Shown piece by piece: positions 242-15,617 of a DNA stretch of 38,888 nt. The stretch lies in UHGV virus genome UHGV-0098678; one strand, written 5' to 3'. The stretch comes from a virus. The position numbers were made by a program, and so were the translations under genes. Within the stretch, counting starts at the first letter, position 1. The number at the start of each line of letters is the position of its first letter. The notes beneath the pieces were generated by a model that had not been told where the DNA came from, searched no databases, and worked only from the letters and a program-made list of their open reading frames with translations.

Positions 242-545
242 CGGTTACCTTCTCCACTCTCACAGAACATAACGGCACCTCGCTGTCGGATGCTTTTGCT
301 CTTTGAGATTATCAAAGCGGCAGATATTCTTTCATCTTAAATTTTACGTCTTTGTTCTGACTGCAGTTCGGCTGCGAAATAAATACATCATTAATACATA
401 TGTTGTGATGATGTATTTTTATAAATTATTCCCCACATGAATTTTAATAAATTTAATCTATTCCTTTATACGCAATACATTTACTTTCCTCTTTTGATGA
501 TCTTAAATGTCTTATTTTTCGTAATGTGTATAACAAGGAATAGTG

Positions 546-1061
546 ATGAAATTTAAAAAATGTCTTCTGCCTGTGGCAATGTTAGCGTCATTCACTCTGG
601 CAGGATGCCAGTCAAATGCTGATGATCATGCCGCCGATGTTTATCAAACCGATCAACTGAATACCAAACAAGAAACTAAAACCGTTAATATTATTTCCAT
701 TCTTCCCGCAAAAGTTGCCGTAGACAACGCCCAAAATAAACGGAACGCACAAGCCTTCGGCGCGCTTATTGGCGCTGTCGCTGGCGGTGTTATCGGCCAC
801 AACGTCGGGTCTGGCAGCAATTCCGGAACGACGGCAGGTGCAGTTGGCGGCGGAGCTGTAGGCGCGGCAGCGGGTTCTATGGTGAATGATAAAACCTTAG
901 TGGAAGGTGTTTCTTTAACATATAAGGAAGGCACCAAAGTGTATACCTCCACCCAAGTGGGTAAAGAGTGCCAGTTTACGACAGGTTTAGCCGTTGTTAT
1001 TACCACGACGTATAACGAAACGCGTATTCAGCCAAATACCAAATGTCCTGAAAAGAGCTAA
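546..1061 (+). CDS. outer-membrane-type lipoprotein with glycine-zipper region
   Basis: ATG at 546 preceded by AAGGA; signal peptide with lipobox LAGC (MKFKKCLLPVAMLASFTLAGCQ); Gly/Ala-rich zipper GALIGAVAGGVIGHNVG...GAVGGGAVGAAAG typical of glycine-zipper 2TM lipoproteins. Confidence 0.65.
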   Translation: MKFKKCLLPVAMLASFTLAGCQSNADDHAADVYQTDQLNTKQETKTVNIISILPAKVAVDNAQNKRNAQAFGALIGAVAGGVIGHNVGSGSNSGTTAGAVGGGAVGAAAGSMVNDKTLVEGVSLTYKEGTKVYTSTQVGKECQFTTGLAVVITTTYNETRIQPNTKCPEKS

Positions 1062-1076
1062 TAATCAGGAGGAGTC

Positions 1077-1616
1077 ATGAAGAAAGTTTTTCTTTGCGCC
1101 ATCTTAGCCTCCTTAAGCTATCCGGCTATCGCCTCATCATTGCAGGATCAACTCTCGGCTGTCGCAGAAGCGGAACAGCAAGGTAAAAATGAAGAGCAAA
1201 GGCAGCATGACGAATGGGTCGCGGAGCGCAACAGGGAAATCCAGCAAGAGAAGCAACGTCGCGCAAACGCCCAGGCCGCGGCTAATAAAAGAGCGGCAAC
1301 GGCAGCAGCGAATAAGAAAGCTCGTCAGGATAAACTGGACGCCGAAGCCACTGCGGACAAAAAACGCGATCAAAGTTATGAAGATGAGCTACGTAGCTTA
1401 GAGATTCAGAAACAAAAACTGGCGCTGGCGAAAGAAGAAGCCCGCGTTAAGCGCGAAAACGAATTTATCGATCAGGAACTGAAGCACAAAGCTGCGCAAA
1501 CCGATGTGGTGCAATCTGAAGCTGACGCAAACAGAAATATGACTGAAGGCGGTCGCGATCTGATGAAAAGCGTGGGTAAAGCAGAAGAGAATAAATCAGA
1601 TAGCTGGTTTAACTAA
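1077..1616 (+). CDS. secreted Lys/Glu/Ala-rich coiled-coil protein, unknown function
   Basis: Strong SD AGGAGGAG 3-10 nt upstream of ATG 1077; N-terminal signal peptide (MKKVFLCAILASLSYPAIASS); highly charged, probably helical remainder. Confidence 0.6.
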   Translation: MKKVFLCAILASLSYPAIASSLQDQLSAVAEAEQQGKNEEQRQHDEWVAERNREIQQEKQRRANAQAAANKRAATAAANKKARQDKLDAEATADKKRDQSYEDELRSLEIQKQKLALAKEEARVKRENEFIDQELKHKAAQTDVVQSEADANRNMTEGGRDLMKSVGKAEENKSDSWFN

Positions 1617-3695: not shown

Positions 3696-6158
3696 TCAAT
3701 TCCCTGTTAATTGCAAAACTTGCTCTTCCAGCTTTTTAACCCTGCGTCTCATCATCGCAGATTCCAGAATCAGAGCCTCTTCATAACGGATACCGTAACA
3801 TTCACCAGCCTCGACGGCTTCGCGTACCAGAACCTTTGTCTGTATAAGTGGGTAAACTCCTGCAGAATGCTCTTCTTCCGTCACATCCCTGTATTCTGCC
3901 GGGGTCTCATTCCACTTGTCATAACAGATAAATGCCAGTCGTGACACATCTATGCCTTCATTCTGAAATACACTGATAACATGCTGCGCAACTGCACCAA
4001 AGTGCCATCTTGCTCCGTCTTTACCTTTCACTTCGATCCTGTCAAGGTACTGGTATGAAACCCATTCCACTCTTTCCCATGCGTCCAGTATTTTCTCATC
4101 AATAACCTCTGGAGCAGTCTTGAAACGCGCATCGGACAGCACCGTAAACGCTGACTGGGTAAATCCCCCCGACCATGCACGACCAGCCAACCCAAGAGAA
4201 TAAGTATTCGTTGTCGATGGTGTCATGGCTGAATCAGAAAACTGTATATATTCTGAATTTCCAGTAGATATTCGAATATTTCCATTTATTAGCGACATAG
4301 TGCCTTTAGTATTATCACTATTGAATAATTTCAATTGCGAACTTATACCGCCTCCCACAGCCAGAGATACATCGCCTTCAGCAAGCATTCTGAATTTATC
4401 TGCAGAAACAAGCGTCTGGTTAGCAAGGTTAAAATATTTAACCCACCATTCAAAACGCCCTGACATAGTCCCAACGTACTGACCAAGCGCAGGGACGTGA
4501 ACAACATTGCTATTTGTAGTGCCGTCTATACTGGAAATACCAGTCACCGCTGATGCAGAACTCAGAATATTATTTCTGTCACCCGGATGTTTAATTTCAA
4601 CAAAGTTCCTGATACACCCTTCCTCGAAGGTAACCACGCCGGAAGAACTATACATGGGGAATATTGACGCATAATTACTGCGTGCAGCATCTAAGAAACG
4701 AATGGTTGTAGATGTCTGCAGATCTCCTGATTCATTTTTCCCATCACACCCAGTCATTAGAATATTACTGGCAATATTATTATTTCCATGAACGGTGACT
4801 CCGTGCGCCTGCTTTGCGTCCGATTCAGAGTAATCAACCAGCACATTCGAAATCAGGTTACCAGTCCCCTTGCCAACAACTACTGCGGCGTATTTTGGGT
4901 TGTTAGCCATTACACTGCTAATGATATTATTCGTTGGGGCAGTTTCCGTCTCAGTTCCATTGTAAACAACGTGCTGACACTCTTCACCAATAACATTGCT
5001 GACAATGTTATATTTTGCTGCTGTTTTAAGTTCCACTGCACCAAACTGAGGATAATTTCTGGCTATCACACCATCAATTAGCGTATTTTGCGATGAATCA
5101 AAAAGCACACAACCTGCTTTTTTATTATTTGCGAACCCTAAATACTCTCCTCTTATATCTCTAACAATGTAACCTGACGGAATACCATTATTCGGATAAG
5201 CGATCAAGCTAAATCCTGTTCCTCGCGTATTTGTAAATCTGATATTTTTAACCGATACATCATGGCCACCTGAAAATGACACCTGGTGTCCCTGCACACT
5301 ATCATCTGATTTATTTCCCATAATTGTTAGCGTACTAAGCATGCCACCATCGGGCATGTTAAAAACCAGATGATTACCATCTCTGTCATACTGTTTTATC
5401 GTTCCCCCACCTGTTCCGTACAAGCCACAACGTGAAAGAGAAACTAAAGATGTATTGAATACCCCTTCCGGAACAAAAACACTGCTAAACGAATGTAATG
5501 ATTTTGTAAAAGCATCCTTGTTATCATTTAAGATTCCATTTTGAGCTCCAAAATCCTTAATGCTGACACCATCACGCATCTTATCCTGGAACGTTCTGTA
5601 TACCGCTCCAGAACCATACTGAATAAACCAACCAAAACCACCAATAACTCCGGCGATTGCAGCATCGACATAATTACGCATTGAGCGATTATTTACAGCG
5701 TCCTGCTCAAGTGATGGATCGGCAAGGTTAGATATTCTGTTTTGCTTTGCATCGTAATATTTTGCAAGCAAAGATGGTTTCATCAATGCACGTCTGAACC
5801 ACCCAAAACATCGCTGGATCAGCATCGTCAGGTAGTCAAATGCATCCTCATGAACTTCGGGGAAAAATTTTCCCTGATTGCGAAGATCAGTCTCCTGCAC
5901 CACATCAAGCACACGCTCTATCGTGATTCGCCAGCCAGCAGCAAGCGGCGACGGAAGAACCACTGCACCGCCACTATAAGTTCCCGCCCCTGTTACCGTA
6001 TAACCAGCATCCAGCACTAGTTTTGTAACGTTACCGTTAAGGTCAGACACCTGAACAACCAGGTCGGATTTTTTGAAAATACGGAAGGTATACGGAAATG
6101 ATGTCGTAACGCCGTTACCTGTGTATTCGTTGTGGTCAACTTCGGTTGAGACCGTCAT
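3696..6158 (-). CDS. tail fiber / tailspike with T7 gp17-like N-terminal adaptor, central beta-helix-like region and C-terminal S74-type intramolecular chaperone domain
   Basis: 820 aa. N-terminus (YTGNGVTTSFPYTF ... NRISNLADPSLEQDAVNNRSMRNYV) matches the T7 tail-fiber N-terminal domain pattern; C-terminus contains SDARFK and a coiled-coil tail typical of self-cleaving chaperone domains; SD GGAG 8 nt upstream of ATG 6158. Confidence 0.75.
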   Translation of the reverse strand: MTVSTEVDHNEYTGNGVTTSFPYTFRIFKKSDLVVQVSDLNGNVTKLVLDAGYTVTGAGTYSGGAVVLPSPLAAGWRITIERVLDVVQETDLRNQGKFFPEVHEDAFDYLTMLIQRCFGWFRRALMKPSLLAKYYDAKQNRISNLADPSLEQDAVNNRSMRNYVDAAIAGVIGGFGWFIQYGSGAVYRTFQDKMRDGVSIKDFGAQNGILNDNKDAFTKSLHSFSSVFVPEGVFNTSLVSLSRCGLYGTGGGTIKQYDRDGNHLVFNMPDGGMLSTLTIMGNKSDDSVQGHQVSFSGGHDVSVKNIRFTNTRGTGFSLIAYPNNGIPSGYIVRDIRGEYLGFANNKKAGCVLFDSSQNTLIDGVIARNYPQFGAVELKTAAKYNIVSNVIGEECQHVVYNGTETETAPTNNIISSVMANNPKYAAVVVGKGTGNLISNVLVDYSESDAKQAHGVTVHGNNNIASNILMTGCDGKNESGDLQTSTTIRFLDAARSNYASIFPMYSSSGVVTFEEGCIRNFVEIKHPGDRNNILSSASAVTGISSIDGTTNSNVVHVPALGQYVGTMSGRFEWWVKYFNLANQTLVSADKFRMLAEGDVSLAVGGGISSQLKLFNSDNTKGTMSLINGNIRISTGNSEYIQFSDSAMTPSTTNTYSLGLAGRAWSGGFTQSAFTVLSDARFKTAPEVIDEKILDAWERVEWVSYQYLDRIEVKGKDGARWHFGAVAQHVISVFQNEGIDVSRLAFICYDKWNETPAEYRDVTEEEHSAGVYPLIQTKVLVREAVEAGECYGIRYEEALILESAMMRRRVKKLEEQVLQLTGN

Positions 6159-6262
6159 GTTAAATCTCCAGATAGTCGCAGCACCCGTTGCGCCGCATAT
6201 CTGGTTATTCTATTACCCAAAAAACCATATATGGATAGAAAGACTGTGAATATGAATAGATA

Positions 6263-6277
6263 TTACCTTTCAGGTAA
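6263..6277. promoter_or_regulatory. 15-bp palindrome TTACC-N5-GGTAA (putative repressor operator)
   Basis: TTACCtttcaGGTAA, extended palindrome aTTACC...GGTAAt at 6262-6278; about 40 bp upstream of the LexA box and antirepressor gene; same core as the site at 24915. Confidence 0.5.
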
Positions 6278-6314
6278 TTTGCAAAACGTGCTGGATAGCA
6301 AACAAATTATTTGA

Positions 6315-6334
6315 TACTGTATAAATATACAGTT
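6315..6334. promoter_or_regulatory. LexA (SOS) box
   Basis: tACTGTataaatatACAGtt: CTGT-N8-ACAG with AT-rich spacer, matching the gammaproteobacterial LexA consensus TACTGTATATATATACAGTA; ends 6 nt before the ATG at 6340. Confidence 0.8.
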
Positions 6335-6339
6335 ATTGC

Positions 6340-6612
6340 ATGGAGAAGATTAAGATGCAGCAGTATCACTATCCACTGGAAGAGGGATTTACCGAAAGGA
6401 TTCACACGCCGGGAGGCGTCAGGTCACTGGTGGAGGGATCGCACTTGATGAAATTACTCCGGGATCTCGATAAGGATGGATTTAATGTCGATGGCCCACT
6501 TGCCGAACTGACTGCACTGATTAACTACGTCACCAGCTCACAGATGTCTATGCAGGATCTGCAAACACATCTCGACTATTGTGCCGAACAATTACGAAAA
6601 CAAACCAGATAA
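6340..6612 (+). CDS. small LexA-controlled antirepressor-like protein (start 6340 or 6355)
   Basis: 90-aa ORF directly behind the LexA box; about 75 aa align with the C-terminal domain of the adjacent Bro-N protein (LMKLLRDLDKDGFNVDGPLAELT vs LMNLLNQLQDDGHDVSGAAAELT; QDLQTH vs RDIQTH). Confidence 0.55.
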   Translation: MEKIKMQQYHYPLEEGFTERIHTPGGVRSLVEGSHLMKLLRDLDKDGFNVDGPLAELTALINYVTSSQMSMQDLQTHLDYCAEQLRKQTR

Positions 6613-7899: not shown

Positions 7900-8343
7900 T
7901 TGAAGTTTAACATTAGAATATCTAATAGTTTTCTACATGGGGAAAGCAACACCCCTTTCGCTGTAGACGGACCTTTCCTTACTGATGATGAAATAAAAAT
8001 CATACAAAGGTTTTTAGAGGATGTTGCCAATGGAAGGGCGCTTGTTGGAAAAAACAAGCCATCGTGGGTTGATGATAACCATGATAAAATTCCCGGCTCA
8101 GACAATTATGAGCAAGAGAATTATTGGCATTATCATTGTGGGCCAACATGGTATCCAAACACATTTAAGAATTATACCATTAACTTAAATTTCAACCCTG
8201 GCGGAATGCATTCTAATGAATGCATTCATTATGCAAAAAATGATAATGAAATTGTCATTGTTGGATTTTCAAGAGAACACATACCTTTCCTTTCATCAGA
8301 TGGAAACAACAATCCGCTTTTTAATGATGAAGAAGAAGAATAA
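7900..8343 (+). CDS. hypothetical protein with acidic C-terminal tail (moron)
   Basis: TTG start at 7900 with AGGAG 6 nt upstream; 147 aa, low-GC coding sequence, C-terminus ...NDEEEE; followed directly by a terminator. No recognisable family. Confidence 0.55.
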   Translation: MKFNIRISNSFLHGESNTPFAVDGPFLTDDEIKIIQRFLEDVANGRALVGKNKPSWVDDNHDKIPGSDNYEQENYWHYHCGPTWYPNTFKNYTINLNFNPGGMHSNECIHYAKNDNEIVIVGFSREHIPFLSSDGNNNPLFNDEEEE

Positions 8344-8365
8344 GCCCGCGCTGCGGGCTTTTTTG
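8343..8365 (+). terminator. rho-independent terminator
   Basis: Stem AGCCCGC/GCGGGCT with 3-nt loop followed by TTTTTT, starting at the stop codon of the 7900-8343 gene. Confidence 0.7.
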
Positions 8366-8436
8366 TGGACGAAACAAAAGTCAGTGCTACACTCATTGAC
8401 GCCACATTGAGGTGGCTTATAGATGGAAATTTCACA

Positions 8437-8598
8437 ATGAAAAAAGCATTTGCTGCACTGTTCGTTTTGTTGTCTCTGGTAGCTTCAACTCAGGCCTTTG
8501 CCGGTCGTTGTCAGCACGACAGCGACACTGCTGCTGACGGCTCCCGCTGCGGTGGGCGTTCTGCGGATTCCCGTCCGGGCGGCGGTGGCATTCGTTAA
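8437..8598 (+). CDS. small secreted Cys-containing Gly/Arg-rich peptide (53 aa precursor)
   Basis: Internal ATG 8437 of the track ORF 8365-8598 gives MKKAFAALFVLLSLVASTQAFA (signal peptide) followed by a roughly 30-aa mature part with two Cys; weak SD. Confidence 0.35.
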   Translation: MKKAFAALFVLLSLVASTQAFAGRCQHDSDTAADGSRCGGRSADSRPGGGGIR

Positions 8599-8627
8599 AA
8601 ACAAGGCCGCGAAAGCGGCCTGTTTGA
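8597..8627. terminator. bidirectional rho-independent terminator
   Basis: A-rich tract, stem GGCCGC gaaa GCGGCC (GNRA-type loop), then TGTTTG; lies between the convergent genes ending at 8598 (+) and 8628 (-). Confidence 0.6.
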
Positions 8628-9479
8628 TCACTGTGCAGTTTTCGCTGATCGATTTTCAGCTCTAAATTCAAGAACCGTTTCAATATTTCTTTCCTTCAGC
8701 ATATCAATAACATTTTTATTCATTTGACTATCACTGGTTAATAACTGGTAAACGTTGCTTCTCTCTTTATCAGAGTTTTCTTTAACAGCTGCTTTGCATG
8801 CCAAATGCTTATTGAAATTTTCTACATCGCTAGTACAGGAATTTACGGCTGCTGATGAAATATCAGACGCTGAAGAAACACCGTCATCCAAACGTTTTAT
8901 AGCATTTTCTATACATGAGTTAAGGGAATAAACGACAACTGAGCGATACCCTTCAGACGCACACCATTCTAAATTTCTTGAAGGATCGAGTGGTTTTACT
9001 TCGCTGGATTGAATTAACTTGTCAAAAACTGACTTATATTCAATCTGTTTTTTATCTATAGCCCATACTTCAGTAGCTGATTTATAATTCCCCGTATGCC
9101 TATTAACATCAAATCCATGTTTTATAAGCAAATCTGCCCATGAAAGATTTATTGATTCATTGTTATGAGGCCATTTTCCTGTCAGAACCGCCCCCATAGA
9201 CCCCATATATCCGCCATATGATGGTATAGCACCATGGCTCAGTAACTTCTCTGCAACCACAGGGCAATTAATTACATAAGAGGCGTAAAGCCCATTCCAT
9301 AAAGCCCCTCTATAGTAATCGCCACGATTAGGTTCTTTTAAGTCGATAGCCTTTGATAATTGTTCGCACGTTTTGCATGCATCAAAGTTATCCTTATTGC
9401 ATTGCAATGAACTGGCAGCTGTAGGATTTACAGAGACTATTGAAAGCACTATGCCAAAAAACAAATTTATTTTTTTCAT
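8628..9479 (-). CDS. secreted Cys-rich protein, possibly with degenerate ankyrin-like repeats (moron)
   Basis: ATG 9479 lies 1 nt after the stop of the upstream virion-protein gene; signal peptide MKKINLFFGIVLSIVSVNPTAASS; AT-rich; segments such as ADLLIKHGFDVNRHTG resemble ankyrin repeat cores. Confidence 0.55.
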   Translation of the reverse strand: MKKINLFFGIVLSIVSVNPTAASSLQCNKDNFDACKTCEQLSKAIDLKEPNRGDYYRGALWNGLYASYVINCPVVAEKLLSHGAIPSYGGYMGSMGAVLTGKWPHNNESINLSWADLLIKHGFDVNRHTGNYKSATEVWAIDKKQIEYKSVFDKLIQSSEVKPLDPSRNLEWCASEGYRSVVVYSLNSCIENAIKRLDDGVSSASDISSAAVNSCTSDVENFNKHLACKAAVKENSDKERSNVYQLLTSDSQMNKNVIDMLKERNIETVLEFRAENRSAKTAQ

Positions 9480-9480
9480 C

Positions 9481-12400
9481 CTATTTCATCTGCTCTTCAA
9501 CTTTATTTAGTAATGGTGATATCGCCCACAGATTCTGAAAAGGTAGCATTTTACGGACAGCGTGGGTTTGCTGGCTGTCAAATTCTCCGTTAAGTACACC
9601 ATTTGCAACCGTCGCGGCATCACCGCCAAGATCAAAGGTAGGACCAAGTAAAGCACCAATAGCATTACGACTCTGAAACCTTGATACCGGAGGCGCACCA
9701 AACATCGCGCCAAGACCAAACCTACCGCCGCTTATGTTCTCAACGGTATTCAGCGGCTCAGAGAGCCAGCCAAGCATTCCGCCCCGGTCGATCCCCTCTT
9801 TCACAAGGTTATTCCAGCTGTAGTCGATATCGCGACCGCTTAACTTCTGTTTCATCATATAGACCATTGAGCCAAGCGCAATCGTGCCAAGCGCACCAAG
9901 ATAGAATGCAGCATCGCCCTGCTGGATACCAGATACCAGCACCCTGTTATGCTGTGCGAAGATAAACGTTTTGAACTGCGTGATCATCTTCCAGCCTTCT
10001 TTACTAAAAAACAGCGGTGTATCACCTACGCCAGGCGTTACAATCACTGAGTCTACATCTTTCAGCACTGCAGACTGGAAAATCTCTCTAGCGAAACGGT
10101 CATCCCACAGATGACTATGCCCGGTTAACAGCCCGTCCATATCCTCTCCGTGCTTCCCGAATTGCTCCCCGATTCGGCGCAGAACATCTTCATTGATGCC
10201 GACCTGTGCCATCTTCCGCATTTCACTTTTGGAGAGCGTGCCACCAGCAGAAACTTGGCGAGCCGCGTCAAGTATCCTCGACTGCACTATCATCCCAGAC
10301 CATGATTTAAGTGCGCTGTTCCACTGATTCATCAGCGTCCAGTTACCGAATTTCTGCGTCATCCAGTTCAGACCTCGCTCAGCGGCGCTTCTCCGGCTAT
10401 AGGGGTCAGTAAGATCCGCTATAGCCTTTGTACGCGTAGACAGGACATAATCAAGCCCAACTGCCATTTCTCGCAAATCCCTGGTTGCAATTTTTACTGA
10501 GTCCATATTTTTAAGCATGCTTACCATTGGTCCGAGAGATTTTCTCAGGCCATGCTGCATCATCGGTCGCATCAGATCAGTTGCAGCGGAGACAGTCATT
10601 CCACCAAGCAAACGGAGGAAGTTAATATTCCTAGCAACTCGCCCGGCACGAACAAAGAAACTGCGTGGATCTTGAGGTGCACCGTAAGTACCAAGCAGTC
10701 GATCACGCATAGCCGTAATATCCCTAATATCAGCCTCCCGTTGCTTCTCAAGAACTGCACGTCGTTTAGGTGTTTTAGCCTCTTTTATTAGCCGGGTATA
10801 TTCCTCACTAACCTGACGGATTTGCTCCCCCATATCTTTACGGCCAAACTGCGCAGTCAGCTCAATTTCTGGTGCCACCTGCCGGAGATAACTTTCCATG
10901 ATGTAGTTAACATCTGATTCAAGAAAATCTTCTATACGCTCATCAGGAATAAGCAGCGTTCTGCTTTTAGTGAAACCAGCCCGACCAACGAGTCTCTCTG
11001 GGATAATATCGGCTGGTACAAGCCCGGAAGGTGCGCCTATTATTTTATTCACGATCTCGTCAGCAGCGTCCTCTGCTTCCTCTCGGGATAGAGGCTCCAT
11101 CTGCTTCAGTGCTCGCTCGCGGCTTGCATTCAGCCTTGTGGTTGAATTTGCCCGTTTTTGCAGTCGGCGAAGCTCAGAACGATATTTCCGTGGATTATCC
11201 AGCAACTCCATATGGCGCTGATAGACAGGAAGCTCACTCTTTGCCTGCGCTATATCATCAAGGCGTGTTTTAAGGTCAGAGCTTTCTTTCATCATTCTTG
11301 CCTGAAGTTTTTCTGATGAAGTCTCGGCCAACTCTTTTTCTATTCTTGTAAGACGCGCCTGTGTGTCAGTCTCCTGAGATATAAGCTTATTTCGTTTATC
11401 CAGTTCTTCCATGAGTAGAATTTTTTTACCAGACCATTTCTCCGCTTCAGCGATTTCACTAGCGAGAGCATCAGCGCGCGGTGCTGATTCCTCTGCAGTT
11501 TTTAGCAATGAATTTATCTTTTCAATTCGCTGACCTGCTTTGTCAGCACCTTTGGCACTAATCCCTTGTATCCAGTTGGCAATTCGCCCTCTGAATTCAG
11601 TGCGGTCGGAAAGTATCTTATCGAACTTATAAATGCGGGGAAGATAACTCTTCGCCGTCACGACATCGATATCCTCAGGAAGGATCCCCAATTCCTGCAT
11701 ACGGGCTTTTGTGGTCTCAAAAATGGGGCGGATTCTGGCGGCTGCTTGTGAAACCTCAGGAATATCACTCTGATCACCACGGCGCATAGCCATGCCAACA
11801 GCTTCATTGAAATCAATAAAGTTCATCCTCTTCACGCCGCGGGCGCTGACAGATTTGCTGTACTGCTGGTAAGCATCACGAGTAGCTTCCATCTGCTTAT
11901 AAAGCATGGCGTCGTATTGCTTAATCTTAGTCTCGACTGCCGTAAACGTAGCCAACCCCTCATCATTTTTGGCGAAGAAATAGTTATTTTCGGCAAGCTG
12001 CTGGTTAATCTGACGGGAGACAAGAGATGGTGATTGCGCCAAGCGGCCAGCAGGAGTGACACTCAACGTTTTGTTAGCAAGTCCAAGTCCAGCGAGCTGT
12101 TCCTGATCGAGTGTGGTATTGAAAACCTGAGCTGCACCAATGCTTTGAGGAGAATCCATACCTCGCAAATGATTACCTACTGAGTTAACCACTGCCTCGC
12201 GCGCGCTAGGTCCAGCAAGTAGCTGTGCACCAGCACCAAGGATCCCACCAACGAGAGCATCAACAACAACGTTCGATACGCTCTCCATCGGTGAGCGAGC
12301 TTCCTGAGTGGCCTGTAATGCGGCTTCTGATACTCCCCCACCAGCAGCATTCGCCAGGGCAAAACGCCCTGCCGTCTCAGCAATACTTCCTCCACGCGCT

Positions 12401-12870
12401 ACCGCCCCTACAGGGATGAACATTGCAGCCACATTAACCGGGTCTATCATTCCCATTGCTAAGCTTGAAATAGTACCAGCACCACCCATTTCAGATAGAT
12501 ATTCTCTATCTGTTCTTTGCTTATCGATTCGATGTTTAATTGCCATTGTTTCTTCATGCGAACCGGAGTTGATAAACGAATCTGCAAAATCTTCATAGCC
12601 TTTAATATCTGCTGCATCGTTATCAAATGGGTTATATCCTTCAACCCTGTCAAACTGACTGAAAGGAGCACTGGCAATAAAGCTACCCAGCGTGTTATCT
12701 ATACGAAATGCTGCTTGTCTAGACCTTTGAACGCGTTGCTCACTGGTAAATGGGTTCACAGCAGAAAGCAAAGAAGGTGTTTCCATATAGAAATTACTGT
12801 CATCAGGTGCTGCTATTTGCTGAATATCCTCGCCAAGCAACTCTTTAGGATCCTGTTCATATATCGGCAT
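9481..12870 (-). CDS. large internal virion (core/ejection) protein, T7 gp16-like by position and size
   Basis: 1129 aa; start overlaps the stop of the upstream gene (TAATG); last large gene of the gp13-gp16-like block before the tail fiber. Confidence 0.5.
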   Translation of the reverse strand: MPIYEQDPKELLGEDIQQIAAPDDSNFYMETPSLLSAVNPFTSEQRVQRSRQAAFRIDNTLGSFIASAPFSQFDRVEGYNPFDNDAADIKGYEDFADSFINSGSHEETMAIKHRIDKQRTDREYLSEMGGAGTISSLAMGMIDPVNVAAMFIPVGAVARGGSIAETAGRFALANAAGGGVSEAALQATQEARSPMESVSNVVVDALVGGILGAGAQLLAGPSAREAVVNSVGNHLRGMDSPQSIGAAQVFNTTLDQEQLAGLGLANKTLSVTPAGRLAQSPSLVSRQINQQLAENNYFFAKNDEGLATFTAVETKIKQYDAMLYKQMEATRDAYQQYSKSVSARGVKRMNFIDFNEAVGMAMRRGDQSDIPEVSQAAARIRPIFETTKARMQELGILPEDIDVVTAKSYLPRIYKFDKILSDRTEFRGRIANWIQGISAKGADKAGQRIEKINSLLKTAEESAPRADALASEIAEAEKWSGKKILLMEELDKRNKLISQETDTQARLTRIEKELAETSSEKLQARMMKESSDLKTRLDDIAQAKSELPVYQRHMELLDNPRKYRSELRRLQKRANSTTRLNASRERALKQMEPLSREEAEDAADEIVNKIIGAPSGLVPADIIPERLVGRAGFTKSRTLLIPDERIEDFLESDVNYIMESYLRQVAPEIELTAQFGRKDMGEQIRQVSEEYTRLIKEAKTPKRRAVLEKQREADIRDITAMRDRLLGTYGAPQDPRSFFVRAGRVARNINFLRLLGGMTVSAATDLMRPMMQHGLRKSLGPMVSMLKNMDSVKIATRDLREMAVGLDYVLSTRTKAIADLTDPYSRRSAAERGLNWMTQKFGNWTLMNQWNSALKSWSGMIVQSRILDAARQVSAGGTLSKSEMRKMAQVGINEDVLRRIGEQFGKHGEDMDGLLTGHSHLWDDRFAREIFQSAVLKDVDSVIVTPGVGDTPLFFSKEGWKMITQFKTFIFAQHNRVLVSGIQQGDAAFYLGALGTIALGSMVYMMKQKLSGRDIDYSWNNLVKEGIDRGGMLGWLSEPLNTVENISGGRFGLGAMFGAPPVSRFQSRNAIGALLGPTFDLGGDAATVANGVLNGEFDSQQTHAVRKMLPFQNLWAISPLLNKVEEQMK

Positions 12871-15617
12871 TATTTGCCCCCTGCGTATATATTGCTCGGA
12901 AGGTAATTGGCTGAACCATAACCGAATGGTTTGGTCAGATCTGGAGGAGTATATCCATCTTTATTGCTGAACTGCGGCAGCGGATTGCCTTCTCTCCGCA
13001 CTCTAGCCTCATCAACACGCTGTTGCTGGAACTGAATGGTTTGCCTGTACATTGGAGATGTCAGCTGATCCGGCTTGAAACGAACAGGGAGACCATTTTC
13101 TCCAATATAATTTCTCGGTTCTATCGCTCCGTTTGCGTCAGGCTGTAAAACCATAACAGCATAACTCCTATCCCTTGCCGTAAGGCCATCAGAAACAAGT
13201 ATTAAGTCCGTATCACTGCGAGGACCGCCAAAGGATTTTGATTTAAGCTCGCGTTTTTCCTGCTCCCACTGCCCCTGTATCCAGTTACCAGCACCATTAT
13301 TTACTCCGTACAATGCCTCAGGTGCATACTTCATAACCTCTGCTTTGCCATTAACCGTAGAAACTCCCCAAGTGGTTCTGATCATGGCATTGGTCATTTT
13401 CTCAGCCTGTTCTGCATCGCCACCTGTCTGTACAAAGTTAGCATCGTAAATTGTCTGGTAATCTCGCTGATAGGCCGCATTTGATTTTCCTGGATCGGTA
13501 ATATCCGGAGACCACGAACCAAAGGAAGTCAGACTGCTGGCGTTATTTTGTGCAGCAGTTGCCCTCGCCGCGACATATTTTTTGTCTCGCATGGCAGTGG
13601 AAAGCATCTGTTTCATTCGGTCATCCTGTTGGAACACCTGGCTGTAAGCCATATCAACAGCCTTATCCTCCGGCACGCCAGCGCGGGAATAATCGTAAAC
13701 CTTGCCGTAAAATGCCATCGTACTTTTATCAAGTGTTGCCGCTGCCGCCGGATTATTATCGAATAACTGACCGTAGAATTTTGCCATCGGGACAACCAGC
13801 GCAGGATCTCTTGATGTCGCTCCACTGTTAAGCATTGTTTTAATCTGAGTTGGTATCATGCCGCTTTTAGTTGTGACGGTGACCAGTGTATTGATGCTCT
13901 GCGGATCAGATATGGAAAACGAAGGCGCGATATCCTGCGCGAAATAACGGTCTACCGCTGCCTGATTGTTTTTGTCGTTCGGGTCCAGCGGGAAGTTATT
14001 TTGCATTGAAGACACGAACCTGTTTCTTCCCTGCTGAATCTCCCACTCCCTATCCATCTCTTTAAATTTGGCCTGCATTTTCTCCCAGCGTTGCTGGTTA
14101 GCTGCAAATCCAGGAGCGTTTGGATCCTGTGGACGTAAACGTTCAAGAATGTCTTGCCGTCCTTCTGGAGTGAGGTCTTTAGCGGCACCAATGACACCTC
14201 CATATTGTATCTGCGCCTGCATATCCTTCCACTTCATAGCGCCAATGCGCGGACCATTGGCCCGGATAAAATCGTCCTCAGAAGGTAACTTCTCAGGTTT
14301 CAATCCTTCATCAAGGGCTGAATATGCATCTTTAACTACGGTGCTAAGCTGGTCCGCATACTGCTGGCGGTACTGATTTCTCAGCTCATTAGCCTGCCTC
14401 AATGCCTGTATTTGCATTTGAGGGCTCATAGCATCAAATGCCGCATTGCCCGTATAACGCTTAGGTGAATCAAGGTTAGTTAGACCAAGGGCTGCCGAGA
14501 TACCAGTTTCAAGCTGTTCGGTGCTATAAGGCATACTGCCATTTTCGTGTTTAATAATCCCAGCACATAAAGCAGCTAGTGTCTTTGGGTTAGAGATATC
14601 AAGCTGATCATTCTCCCCAACACCAAGCTCACCACACAATGCCCTAATATAAGCATCAGTATTATTACCATCACTAGCCGGAGCATAGCGATTAACAATC
14701 TCGCTAACGGTGTCATAGCCTTGACGCTGGTAAGACAACATATTTTTACCCAACGCGCGGATTCCATGCTCAGGGGTAGCAAACGTTGCAAAACGTCCAT
14801 CGCTACCGATCTGACCTTCCCACGGGTTAGATTTGCTCGCTTCAATATTACCGGGGTTATTATTACGTAAACCACGAGCATCCAATGAATTACCATGTGA
14901 TATTGCACGACTCACACCATCAAGATCCCCTGGCTCTCCATTAACCTGAAGAAACTCGTTGTATTTTTGAGCGATATTTCCTATCCATGCTTGCTGCCCC
15001 ATTTGTTCCTTGAGCTGAGTTTTCTGCTGAACACGCCACTCATCAGGAAGCCCATGCGCATCAGCGTATTGATCAATAGATTCAAATCGCTGCTTGGCTA
15101 AATCGACAAATGCTTGGTTATCGCTATATAGCCCCGCAGACTGAGTGACAGCCAATGCATTTCCTGACAAATACGTTTGATCTTGGAATTGCTGAAACTG
15201 CCCAACTTCATATCGACGTGCCTGATTGTAATAAGACTGCATAGACTGCTGGAGTTGAAAGGATAATTTATTCCTTTCCTCACTTTCAGGAATTGAGCCT
15301 AATAATGCCTGAGCCCTTTCCTGCATATTTTTCATAACAGCGTCACTCTGACCAAGAGCGTTTTTACCCTGTTTAGAAATCAGCCCATTTTCAGGGTTGT
15401 TAATCTGGTCATCTGCAAATTGGTTAAATTGCAGTAACGCCTCCTGGGCCATAGCAACATTCGCTTTCTGCCTGGCTTCACCATATGCCACCGCATACTG
15501 ATCTGCGACATTCGCCAGCACCTGACCTGCTTGAGGAACATCGAAGGTCTGAAAACCACCGGTTTGCACACCACGACTTTGCACCTGGCGTCCGGATGTA
15601 GTAGGAACAACAGGCAT
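12870..15617 (-). CDS. large internal virion (core/ejection) protein, T7 gp15-like position, with a possible cell-wall-hydrolase-like region
   Basis: 915 aa; strong SD AGGAGG before ATG 15617; ATGA overlap with the upstream gene; conserved-looking motif block GLRNNNPGNIEASKSNPWEGQ...FATFATPEHGIRAL... Confidence 0.5.
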   Translation of the reverse strand: MPVVPTTSGRQVQSRGVQTGGFQTFDVPQAGQVLANVADQYAVAYGEARQKANVAMAQEALLQFNQFADDQINNPENGLISKQGKNALGQSDAVMKNMQERAQALLGSIPESEERNKLSFQLQQSMQSYYNQARRYEVGQFQQFQDQTYLSGNALAVTQSAGLYSDNQAFVDLAKQRFESIDQYADAHGLPDEWRVQQKTQLKEQMGQQAWIGNIAQKYNEFLQVNGEPGDLDGVSRAISHGNSLDARGLRNNNPGNIEASKSNPWEGQIGSDGRFATFATPEHGIRALGKNMLSYQRQGYDTVSEIVNRYAPASDGNNTDAYIRALCGELGVGENDQLDISNPKTLAALCAGIIKHENGSMPYSTEQLETGISAALGLTNLDSPKRYTGNAAFDAMSPQMQIQALRQANELRNQYRQQYADQLSTVVKDAYSALDEGLKPEKLPSEDDFIRANGPRIGAMKWKDMQAQIQYGGVIGAAKDLTPEGRQDILERLRPQDPNAPGFAANQQRWEKMQAKFKEMDREWEIQQGRNRFVSSMQNNFPLDPNDKNNQAAVDRYFAQDIAPSFSISDPQSINTLVTVTTKSGMIPTQIKTMLNSGATSRDPALVVPMAKFYGQLFDNNPAAAATLDKSTMAFYGKVYDYSRAGVPEDKAVDMAYSQVFQQDDRMKQMLSTAMRDKKYVAARATAAQNNASSLTSFGSWSPDITDPGKSNAAYQRDYQTIYDANFVQTGGDAEQAEKMTNAMIRTTWGVSTVNGKAEVMKYAPEALYGVNNGAGNWIQGQWEQEKRELKSKSFGGPRSDTDLILVSDGLTARDRSYAVMVLQPDANGAIEPRNYIGENGLPVRFKPDQLTSPMYRQTIQFQQQRVDEARVRREGNPLPQFSNKDGYTPPDLTKPFGYGSANYLPSNIYAGGK

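What the first reader, a model, noticed from the sequence alone, without database searches (positions are those of the whole stretch)
8437..9479. Signal-peptide-bearing cargo proteins at the end of the virion operon
A 283-aa Cys-rich secreted protein with ankyrin-like repeat cores is encoded 1 nt downstream of the gp16-like ejection-protein gene, so it is probably co-transcribed with late genes. It is strongly AT-rich, atypical for the flanking virion genes. A convergent 53-aa precursor with signal peptide and Gly/Arg/Cys-rich mature peptide shares a bidirectional terminator with it. Periplasmic morons in this position often mediate superinfection exclusion or host-interaction functions.
Basis: partly seen in the sequence, partly recalled or inferred. 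Interest (0 to 1): 0.6.

Follow-up and report, generated by a model that had tools for sequence, protein, structure and literature searches.

The report
Exported ankyrin-like partner of virion lysozyme
A prophage gene at the end of the DNA-ejection operon encodes an exported ankyrin-fold protein whose relatives elsewhere sit directly beside the same kind of cell-wall-cutting enzyme that this phage carries in its particle, so it is probably a periplasmic blocker of that enzyme, which would keep rival phages out.

Summary
ORF 8628-9479 (-) encodes 283 aa, starts 1 nt after the gp16-like gene, is 37% GC against 48% for the window, and has a Sec-type leader and 8 invariant Cys. ORF 8437-8598 (+) encodes a conserved 53-aa exported peptide. 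One hairpin (8604-8621) lies between the two genes.

The new finding is a gene-neighbourhood link. The gp15-like ejection protein of this prophage carries an Enc34/PHA02564-type lysozyme domain. Stand-alone homologues of the N-domain lie directly next to genes with that same domain in five unrelated loci, two of them beside type VI secretion (T6SS) genes. In two more loci they sit in phage tail modules whose tape-measure-like protein carries the domain.

I therefore read the 283-aa protein as a periplasmic inhibitor ("immunity") of the virion lysozyme. It would work like T4 Spackle or a T6SS immunity protein but is unrelated to them. Binding is untested, and the C-domain is unexplained.

The 53-aa gene is a separate, more widespread unit of unknown function.

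The parts
8628..9479 (-). Gene for the 283-aa exported two-domain protein (phrog_6118, 'hypothetical protein' in RefSeq)
   Evidence: ORF found. 100% identical in Escherichia phage EC.W1-9 and present in 106 E. coli genomes. Family alignment. No Pfam, NCBIfam or PADLOC match.
9408..9479 (-). Sec-type signal peptide, residues 1 to about 24 (MKK, hydrophobic core, TAAS/S)
   Evidence: Hydropathy profile. All homologues have an equivalent leader, with A-x-A just before the first conserved Cys. Not checked with SignalP.
9000..9407 (-). N-terminal ankyrin-fold domain (residues 25-160; C-x7-C-x2-C ... GDYYRGALWNGLY..YV.NC ... LL..GA.P..GG ... WPHNN)
8631..8987 (-). C-terminal helical domain (residues about 165-283; C..I..LDDG[IV]S.ASDI...C), function unknown
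   Evidence: pLDDT above 90 in the full-length model. Stand-alone secreted homologues of 110-160 aa exist. No Pfam match. A scan of viral contigs found only the same family.
8604..8621 (.). G+C-rich hairpin between the two convergent genes; terminator-like on the - strand
   Evidence: The same element is annotated as a terminator in phage phiV10.
8437..8598 (+). Gene for the 53-aa exported peptide ('transmembrane anchored protein' in NCBI; phrog_14503)
   Evidence: In 498 of 5426 E. coli genomes. Purifying selection: 24 synonymous against 7 non-synonymous codon changes.
8342..8360 (+). Strong terminator hairpin upstream of the 53-aa gene. With 8604-8621 it brackets that gene as a unit of its own.
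   Evidence: 8-bp stem with 6 G-C pairs, followed by TTTTTGTGG.
8396..8423 (+). Possible weak promoter of the 53-aa gene (TTGACG, 16 nt, TATAGA)
   Evidence: Read from the sequence. It did not pass the scan, so this is inference only.
14469..14879 (-). Enc34/PHA02564-type lysozyme domain (residues about 247-383) inside the 915-aa gp15-like ejection protein (gene 12870-15617). Proposed target of the 283-aa protein.
   Evidence: Sequence. PDB matches 7q47_A 'Endolysin' E=1.3e-16 and 9vvp_L 'Gp29' E=1.3e-35, with the HENG glutamate conserved. PHROG annotations 'endolysin' and 'tail injection transglycosylase' cover residues 243-395. Muralytic activity of this family is shown in PMC8943055.
9481..12870 (-). 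gp16-like internal virion (ejection) protein gene, immediately upstream of the 283-aa gene and probably co-translated with it
   Evidence: The junction reads ...AAA TAG G ATG..., with no separate Shine-Dalgarno spacing.

Best explanation
The 283-aa protein is exported to the periplasm by a Sec leader and held together there by up to four disulfides. Its N-terminal ankyrin-fold domain belongs to a family that acts as the periplasmic partner of Enc34/PHA02564-type lysozyme domains.

In this prophage that lysozyme domain sits in the gp15-like ejection protein. Such a protein is shot into the periplasm of a newly infected cell to open the cell wall. The most likely mechanism is that the exported protein binds and blocks this muralytic domain when it arrives from a superinfecting particle of the same or a related phage. 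DNA entry would then stall and the cell would be protected from 'lysis from without'. This is what T4 Spackle does to the gp5 lysozyme, and what T6SS immunity proteins do to cell-wall effectors.

Shown here: gene structure, the leader, the ankyrin fold, family distribution, conserved synteny, and the neighbourhood link to the lysozyme domain.
Inferred: export, binding, inhibition, and the biological role.

The 53-aa gene is a separate self-contained unit that encodes a small exported peptide of unknown role.
For: 1. Export features and 8 invariant Cys.

2. The N-domain has an ankyrin fold, which is a classic protein-binding scaffold.

3. The gp15-like protein carries an Enc34-type lysozyme domain with the catalytic-motif Glu conserved. 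The family is muralytic (PMC8943055).

4. Stand-alone N-domain homologues, all with leaders, lie directly next to leaderless genes with that lysozyme domain in 5 independent loci:
- L017: 4-nt overlap.
- L082: 5-nt gap.
- L084: GTGA overlap.
- L079: 8-nt gap.
- L081: convergent, with overlapping 3' ends.
L079 lies 1.3 kb from a TssH/ClpV1 gene (TIGR03345, 1274 bits). L084 lies downstream of TssM/IcmF.

5. In L016 and L085 the homologue closes a phage tail module whose tape-measure-like protein ends in the same lysozyme domain.

6. Every locus of the 283-aa family with enough upstream DNA has the lysozyme-bearing gp15.

7. In E. coli the gene is tied to this ejection module: 106 genomes carry it, against 120 with this gp16 3' end. 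It keeps its slot in Serratia and Morganella prophages, diverging faster than gp16 (58-61% and 40% identity, against 79% and 56%).

8. Distances between N-domains and between their partner lysozyme domains correlate: r=0.88 for 13 pairs; r=0.54, p about 0.06, for 7 independent pairs.

9. One stand-alone homologue (L080) sits among Abi_C and reverse-transcriptase genes on an integrated element, a typical anti-phage neighbourhood.

10. Precedent: periplasmic Spackle inhibits the T4 gp5 lysozyme but not the 43%-identical endolysin (PMC7677548).
Against: - No binding or inhibition data exist.
- In the window the gene is separated from gp15 by the 3.4-kb gp16 gene, so it is not adjacent to its proposed target.
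- Roughly half of the stand-alone loci show no Enc34-type gene within the DNA held: L049/L070, L068, L077, L080, L083, L064 and the MORN fusions.
- A distant alphaproteobacterial subfamily sits next to a small cytochrome c and a NOX5-like oxidase instead.
- No promoter was found for the gene. Expression in lysogens is therefore unproven, and a purely late protein could exclude only during infection.
- Morganella prophages with a homologue use an Enc34-type endolysin that is 42% identical to their gp15 domain. The inhibitor would have to discriminate between the two.
- The C-terminal domain is unexplained.
- The mirror-tree signal may reflect joint inheritance rather than co-evolution.
Confidence: 0.5

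Rival explanations
1. Orphan interbacterial immunity. The prophage-borne protein protects the lysogen from T6SS (or similar) effectors of competing bacteria that carry Enc34-type lysozyme domains, rather than from phages.
For: The two closest 'immunity-effector' style pairs lie beside T6SS genes: L079 near TssH and L084 near TssM. Their lysozyme proteins lack leaders and share a His-rich tail.
Against: The gene is tied to a phage module that itself carries the lysozyme domain, and it keeps its slot across genera. No promoter for prophage-state expression was found. No such effectors were looked for in Enterobacterales.
Confidence: 0.15
2. An exported accessory protein with a different target, for example blocking a receptor or envelope component, or acting on the animal host. 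The link to lysozyme genes would then be irrelevant to the phage copy.
For: This slot holds other envelope-directed products in related phages: a 46-aa two-TM protein in phiV10, and an approximately 98-aa multi-TM protein in phiv142-3 and after the Serratia homologue. The gene is persistently AT-rich in three hosts. Many N-domain homologues have no lysozyme neighbour. The C-domain is unexplained.
Against: Five direct adjacencies, plus two tail modules with the same enzyme domain, are hard to explain by chance in about 217 kb of flanks. The gene also co-occurs fully with lysozyme-bearing gp15.
Confidence: 0.2
3. A positive helper or regulator. [quoted passage not shown]
For: The E. cloacae Tli ankyrin-repeat immunity protein is reported to activate its Tle effector (bioRxiv 10.1101/2023.03.28.534661). 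Morganella prophages pair a homologue with an Enc34-type endolysin.
Against: The E. coli prophage uses a GH19 endolysin, not an Enc34-type one. The virion gp15 of the producing cell never meets the periplasm of that cell. A related Klebsiella phage with the same type of gp16-like gene lacks the 283-aa gene, so it is dispensable.
Confidence: 0.1
4. A virion structural or ejection protein, like its upstream neighbours.
For: Position at the end of the ejection operon and probable translational coupling to gp16.
Against: The cleavable Sec leader and invariant Cys pairs point to the periplasm, whereas virions assemble in the cytoplasm. The gene is absent from related phages that share the same type of gp16-like gene. 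No structural match to viral proteins was found.
Confidence: 0.03

Closest known systems
T4 Spackle (gene sp) acting on the gp5 tail lysozyme
   Same: A phage-encoded periplasmic protein proposed to bind the virion-borne lysozyme of an incoming phage. It gives superinfection exclusion and resistance to lysis from without, and it must spare a homologous endolysin (43% identity in T4; 42% in the Morganella prophage) (PMC7677548).
   Different: No sequence or fold relation: the top PDB matches are ankyrins. The enzyme family differs (Enc34/PHA02564 type, not T4 GH24). The virion location of the enzyme differs (a gp15-like internal ejection protein of a podovirus-type module, not a contractile-tail spike). 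The gene sits in a late operon of a temperate phage, not among early genes.
Periplasmic T6SS immunity proteins for cell-wall effectors (e.g. Tsi3/Tse3, TsiV3/VgrG3, named from my own knowledge) and the ankyrin-repeat immunity protein Tli of Enterobacter cloacae
   Same: A leader-bearing small protein is encoded next to, and often translationally coupled with, a leaderless enzyme gene. Two such pairs lie beside TssH or TssM. Tli shows that ankyrin repeats are used for periplasmic immunity.
   Different: Tli is a lipoprotein that neutralises a phospholipase. This family has an SPase-I-type leader and is linked to a lysozyme fold. The window copy sits in a phage, carries an extra C-terminal domain, and lies two genes away from the enzyme.
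Bacterial periplasmic lysozyme inhibitors (Ivy, PliC/MliC, PliG; from my own knowledge)
   Same: Exported proteins that protect peptidoglycan by blocking a lysozyme active site.
   Different: They are host-encoded, have different folds, and target animal c- or g-type lysozymes. They are not paired with a cognate bacterial or phage enzyme gene.
Phage morons (promoter-gene-terminator cassettes)
   Same: AT-rich accessory gene at the end of a late operon, followed by a terminator. The neighbouring 53-aa gene fits the cassette picture well, being bracketed by two hairpins.
   Different: The 283-aa gene has no intergenic space or detectable promoter. It is inherited with the ejection module across genera.

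Membership tests
Ankyrin repeat proteins | Match to Pfam Ank-clan models at the gathering score | tested here: not met
   No Pfam family for the 283-aa protein or for stand-alone homologues. The family profile reaches only weak matches to true Ank proteins, e.g. P0057, E=5.8e-11.
Ankyrin repeat proteins | Fold: stacked helix-turn-helix units joined by beta-hairpin fingers | tested here: met
Sec-exported (SPase I) periplasmic protein | Basic n-region, hydrophobic h-region, small residues at -3 and -1, no lipobox | tested here: met
   MKK + INLFFGIVLSIVSV + NPTAAS/S. This is the only hydrophobic segment of the protein. Homologues end in A-x-A just before the first conserved Cys. SignalP was not available, and export was not shown.
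T4 Spackle family | Sequence or fold homology to Spackle | tested here: not met
T4 Spackle family | Binds and inhibits the virion lysozyme; confers exclusion | not testable with these tools
   Needs biochemistry and genetics.
Effector-immunity pair (T6SS-type) | Immunity gene directly adjacent to the cognate enzyme gene | tested here: inconclusive
   Met for stand-alone homologues in L017, L079, L081, L082 and L084. In the window the enzyme domain lies in the same operon, but the gp16 gene lies between.
Effector-immunity pair (T6SS-type) | Secretion-system genes nearby | tested here: not met
   Met in L079 (TssH) and L084 (TssM). Not met in the window, where the delivery device is the virion.
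Moron | Own promoter and terminator; atypical composition; variable presence among related phages | tested here: inconclusive
   For the 283-aa gene: composition and terminator are met; no promoter was found; it is absent from Klebsiella phage ST512-KPC3phi13.3 but present in 106 of the 120 E. coli genomes with this gp16. The 53-aa gene is bracketed by two hairpins and has only a weak promoter-like site.
Enc34/PHA02564-type lysozyme (for the gp15-like domain) | Sequence match to the solved Enc34 endolysin domain, with the catalytic Glu conserved | tested here: met
   7q47_A E=1.3e-16. RNNNPGNI, [YW]AP, NNT.AY and HENG all align. The catalytic Glu131 and muralytic activity are described in PMC8943055. 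Activity of gp15 itself was not tested.

The most novel reading that the evidence does not exclude
A previously undescribed family of periplasmic ankyrin-fold immunity proteins is specific for Enc34/PHA02564-type muramidases. It is shared between phage DNA-ejection or tail modules and T6SS-linked effector pairs. In this temperate coliphage it would be a functional analogue of T4 Spackle: superinfection exclusion by blocking the cell-wall-opening domain of an internal ejection protein.
Probability: 0.4. Interest if true: 0.75.

Novelty: new variant of a known kind. Interest (0 to 1): 0.62.

Why it matters
Only one phage protein, T4 Spackle, is known to exclude rivals by inhibiting the lysozyme of the incoming particle. 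A second, unrelated solution in temperate prophages of E. coli, Klebsiella, Serratia and Morganella would show that this strategy is general.

Three further points follow:
- About 2% of complete E. coli genomes carry the gene, so a 'hypothetical protein' would gain a function.
- The Enc34-type lysozyme is being explored as an antibacterial enzyme, and this would be a natural inhibitor of it.
- Phage ejection modules and T6SS effector-immunity pairs would be linked through one shared enzyme-inhibitor pair.

The idea can be tested directly with two purified domains.

Tried and rejected
- Pfam, NCBIfam and PADLOC gave nothing for the 283-aa protein. PHROGs gave only phrog_6118, 'unknown function'.
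- A PDB sequence search with the family profile gave only chance coiled-coil matches.
- Foldseek against viral structures found nothing significant.
- The afdb50 library was not available.
- The genome-contig scan gave only 2 loci.
The C-domain therefore stays unexplained.
- The weak NCBIfam hit of the 53-aa peptide to HxsA3 (E=0.07, 12.9 bits against a cut-off of 65) was dismissed as chance.
- The cytochrome c / NOX5-like context of distant alphaproteobacterial homologues was not used for inference, because that subfamily lacks the WPH motif.
- No paper was found for PDB entry 9vvp.
- A lipoprotein reading was rejected for both products, since neither has a lipobox.

Full report
**What is there.** The window is an E. 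coli prophage next to the host genes yfgH and yfgI. Window ORFs 543-1061 and 1077-1616 match the lengths of those two genes in the RefSeq record. Over 8332-9600 it is 99.5% identical to Escherichia phage EC.W1-9.

On the minus strand lies a T7-like ejection module:
- a tail protein of 823 aa;
- internal virion proteins of 154 and 188 aa (the latter is 'T7 gp14 family' in RefSeq);
- a 915-aa gp15-like protein;
- a 1129-aa gp16-like protein.

The 283-aa ORF (8628-9479) starts 1 nt after the gp16-like stop, in the context ...AAA TAG G ATG. This leaves no room for a normal ribosome-binding site, which suggests translational coupling. No promoter-like site was found on the minus strand between 8272 and 10000. 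The gene is 37% GC, against 48% for its neighbours and for the window. A hairpin at 8604-8621 follows it and scores as a terminator on the minus strand.

**The protein.** It has a typical Sec leader and no other hydrophobic segment. Its family is small: E. coli, Klebsiella (84-89% identity), Serratia and relatives (54-61%), and Morganella/Providencia (39-42%). All members have leaders and 8 invariant cysteines. This fits a disulfide-bonded periplasmic protein.

An exhaustive profile search split it into two domains, each with free-standing secreted homologues:
- The C-domain is a confident helical bundle (pLDDT above 90) with the motif LDDG[IV]S.ASDI between two cysteines. It has no known relatives.

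**Inheritance.** The homologues in Serratia and Morganella prophages occupy exactly the same slot after the gp16-like gene. They have diverged faster than gp16: 58-61% and 40% identity, against 79% and 56%. They are AT-rich there too: 40% against 53.5%, and 35% against 52%.

In complete E. coli genomes the gene occurs in 106 of 5426, while this gp16 3' end occurs in 120. A Klebsiella phage with the same type of gp16-like gene has an unrelated 204-aa cytoplasmic protein in the slot. Phages with a different ejection module hold small membrane proteins there instead: phiV10 and phiv142-3. A similar small membrane protein also follows the 273-aa homologue in the Serratia prophage.

The gene is therefore a dispensable accessory that travels with this particular ejection module.

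**The key lead.** I looked at the surroundings of free-standing N-domain homologues. In a Bacteriovoracia MAG (L017) the gene overlaps by 4 nt a leaderless 219-aa gene with the motif RNQNPGNI. In a proteobacterial prophage (L016) the homologue closes a tail module whose tape-measure-like protein ends in RNNNPGNI. The window's own gp15-like protein has the same domain at residues about 247-383.

This domain matches the solved Enc34 endolysin (7q47, E=1.3e-16) and the N-terminus of a 1295-aa 'Gp29' (9vvp, E=1.3e-35). The HENG glutamate is conserved. The Enc34 paper shows that this PHA02564 family is muralytic and names that glutamate as catalytic (PMC8943055).

An HMM of the domain, run over all fetched loci, hit:
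- the gp15-like gene of every 283-aa-family locus with enough upstream DNA;
- a gene directly adjacent to the N-domain gene in L017, L079, L081, L082 and L084;
- the tape-measure-like gene in L016 and L085.

The junctions are tight: a 4-nt overlap, an 8-nt gap, a 5-nt gap, a GTGA overlap, and one convergent overlap. In each adjacent pair the N-domain protein has a leader and the enzyme has none. L079 is 1.3 kb from a TssH/ClpV1 gene, and L084 is downstream of TssM.

Pairwise distances of the two domains correlate: r=0.88 over 13 pairs; r=0.54, p about 0.06, over 7 independent pairs. One further homologue (L080) sits among Abi_C and reverse-transcriptase genes on an integrated element.

**Interpretation.** The pattern is that of an exported immunity protein paired with a delivered cell-wall enzyme. 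In the phage, the enzyme is delivered by the virion. I therefore propose that the 283-aa protein waits in the periplasm and blocks the lysozyme domain of gp15 from superinfecting particles. That would give exclusion and protection from lysis from without, as T4 Spackle does for gp5 (PMC7677548).

The Morganella prophages also use an Enc34-type endolysin that is 42% identical to their gp15 domain. This looks like a conflict. However, T4 shows the same situation at 43% identity, and Spackle spares the endolysin. The E. coli prophage uses a GH19 endolysin.

**Weak points.**
- No binding test was possible.
- The gene is not adjacent to gp15.
- About half of the free-standing homologues have no such neighbour in the DNA held.
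- A distant subfamily sits with a cytochrome c and a NOX5-like oxidase.
- No promoter was found, so the timing of expression is unknown.
- The C-domain is unexplained.

**The 53-aa gene.** ORF 8437-8598 (+) is a separate unit. It is bracketed by hairpins at 8342-8360 and 8604-8621 and has only a weak promoter-like site (TTGACG, 16 nt, TATAGA; my reading of the sequence). It occurs in 498 of 5426 E. coli genomes and in 12 phage records, independently of the 283-aa gene. It is under purifying selection. NCBI calls it 'transmembrane anchored protein' and PHROGs 'membrane associated protein'. The sequence instead shows a cleavable leader (AFA|G) and a 31-residue Gly/Arg-rich peptide with two cysteines. 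Its function is unknown.

**Verdict.** The kind of system is known (Spackle; T6SS immunity), but the protein family, its fold and the enzyme it is linked to are new in this role.

Noticed in passing
window 543-1616: The two ORFs of 172 and 179 aa match the host genes yfgH and yfgI in length and position, judged against the RefSeq record around the same prophage. The window's left end is therefore host DNA, and the prophage boundary lies near 1616-1811.
   Followed up: partly
window 7900-8343 (+): A 147-aa ORF (phrog_5954, unknown function) is even more AT-rich (35% GC, GC3 30%) and ends at a strong terminator (8342-8360). RefSeq prophage copies carry a different gene (DUF2335) at this position, so this slot is variable too.
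   Followed up: partly
window 3696-6158 (-): The 820-aa tailspike has a beta-helix and a C-terminal Peptidase_S74 (endosialidase chaperone) domain. EC.W1-9 and RefSeq prophages carry different spikes here ('eliminase', GH28-related), so the receptor-binding module is exchanged between otherwise near-identical phages.
   Followed up: no
L004 12247-12723; also L046 and L047: Morganella prophages of this type use a 158-aa Enc34-type endolysin in their lysis cassette. It is 42% identical to the lysozyme domain of their own gp15-like protein.
   Followed up: yes
L017 5264-5923; L081 8476-9132 (-); L082 6685-7359: Leaderless proteins of about 220 aa fuse an Enc34-type lysozyme domain to DUF3892. Each lies next to an exported ankyrin-like gene and outside any obvious phage or secretion cluster.
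   Followed up: partly
L079 10259-10804; L084 8495-9091: T6SS-linked Enc34-type lysozyme proteins share a histidine-rich C-terminal tail (HHHHHPVHHHHPTHHH and HRHHRHRHHH).
   Followed up: no
L010, L011, L012, L014 (about 5600-6500): In Alphaproteobacteria a distant subfamily of the exported N-domain always follows a small cytochrome c gene by 5-38 nt. It is divergent from an EF-hand NADPH-oxidase (NOX5-like) gene.
   Followed up: no
L072, L074, L075, L076: Marine contigs encode secreted proteins of 458-479 aa in which the ankyrin-like domain follows MORN-type repeats, next to an integrase-like gene.
   Followed up: no
L073 2255-2905 (-): A 217-aa protein has the E-x8-D-x5-T spacing of T4-type lysozymes (weak Pfam Phage_lysozyme hit, below threshold). 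It lies 1 kb from a stand-alone N-domain gene, with two small secreted proteins between them.
   Followed up: partly
L008 4194-4550 (-); L002 8850-9146: A conserved membrane protein of about 98 aa with several hydrophobic segments occupies the post-ejection-operon slot in phiv142-3. It also follows the 273-aa homologue in the Serratia prophage.
   Followed up: no
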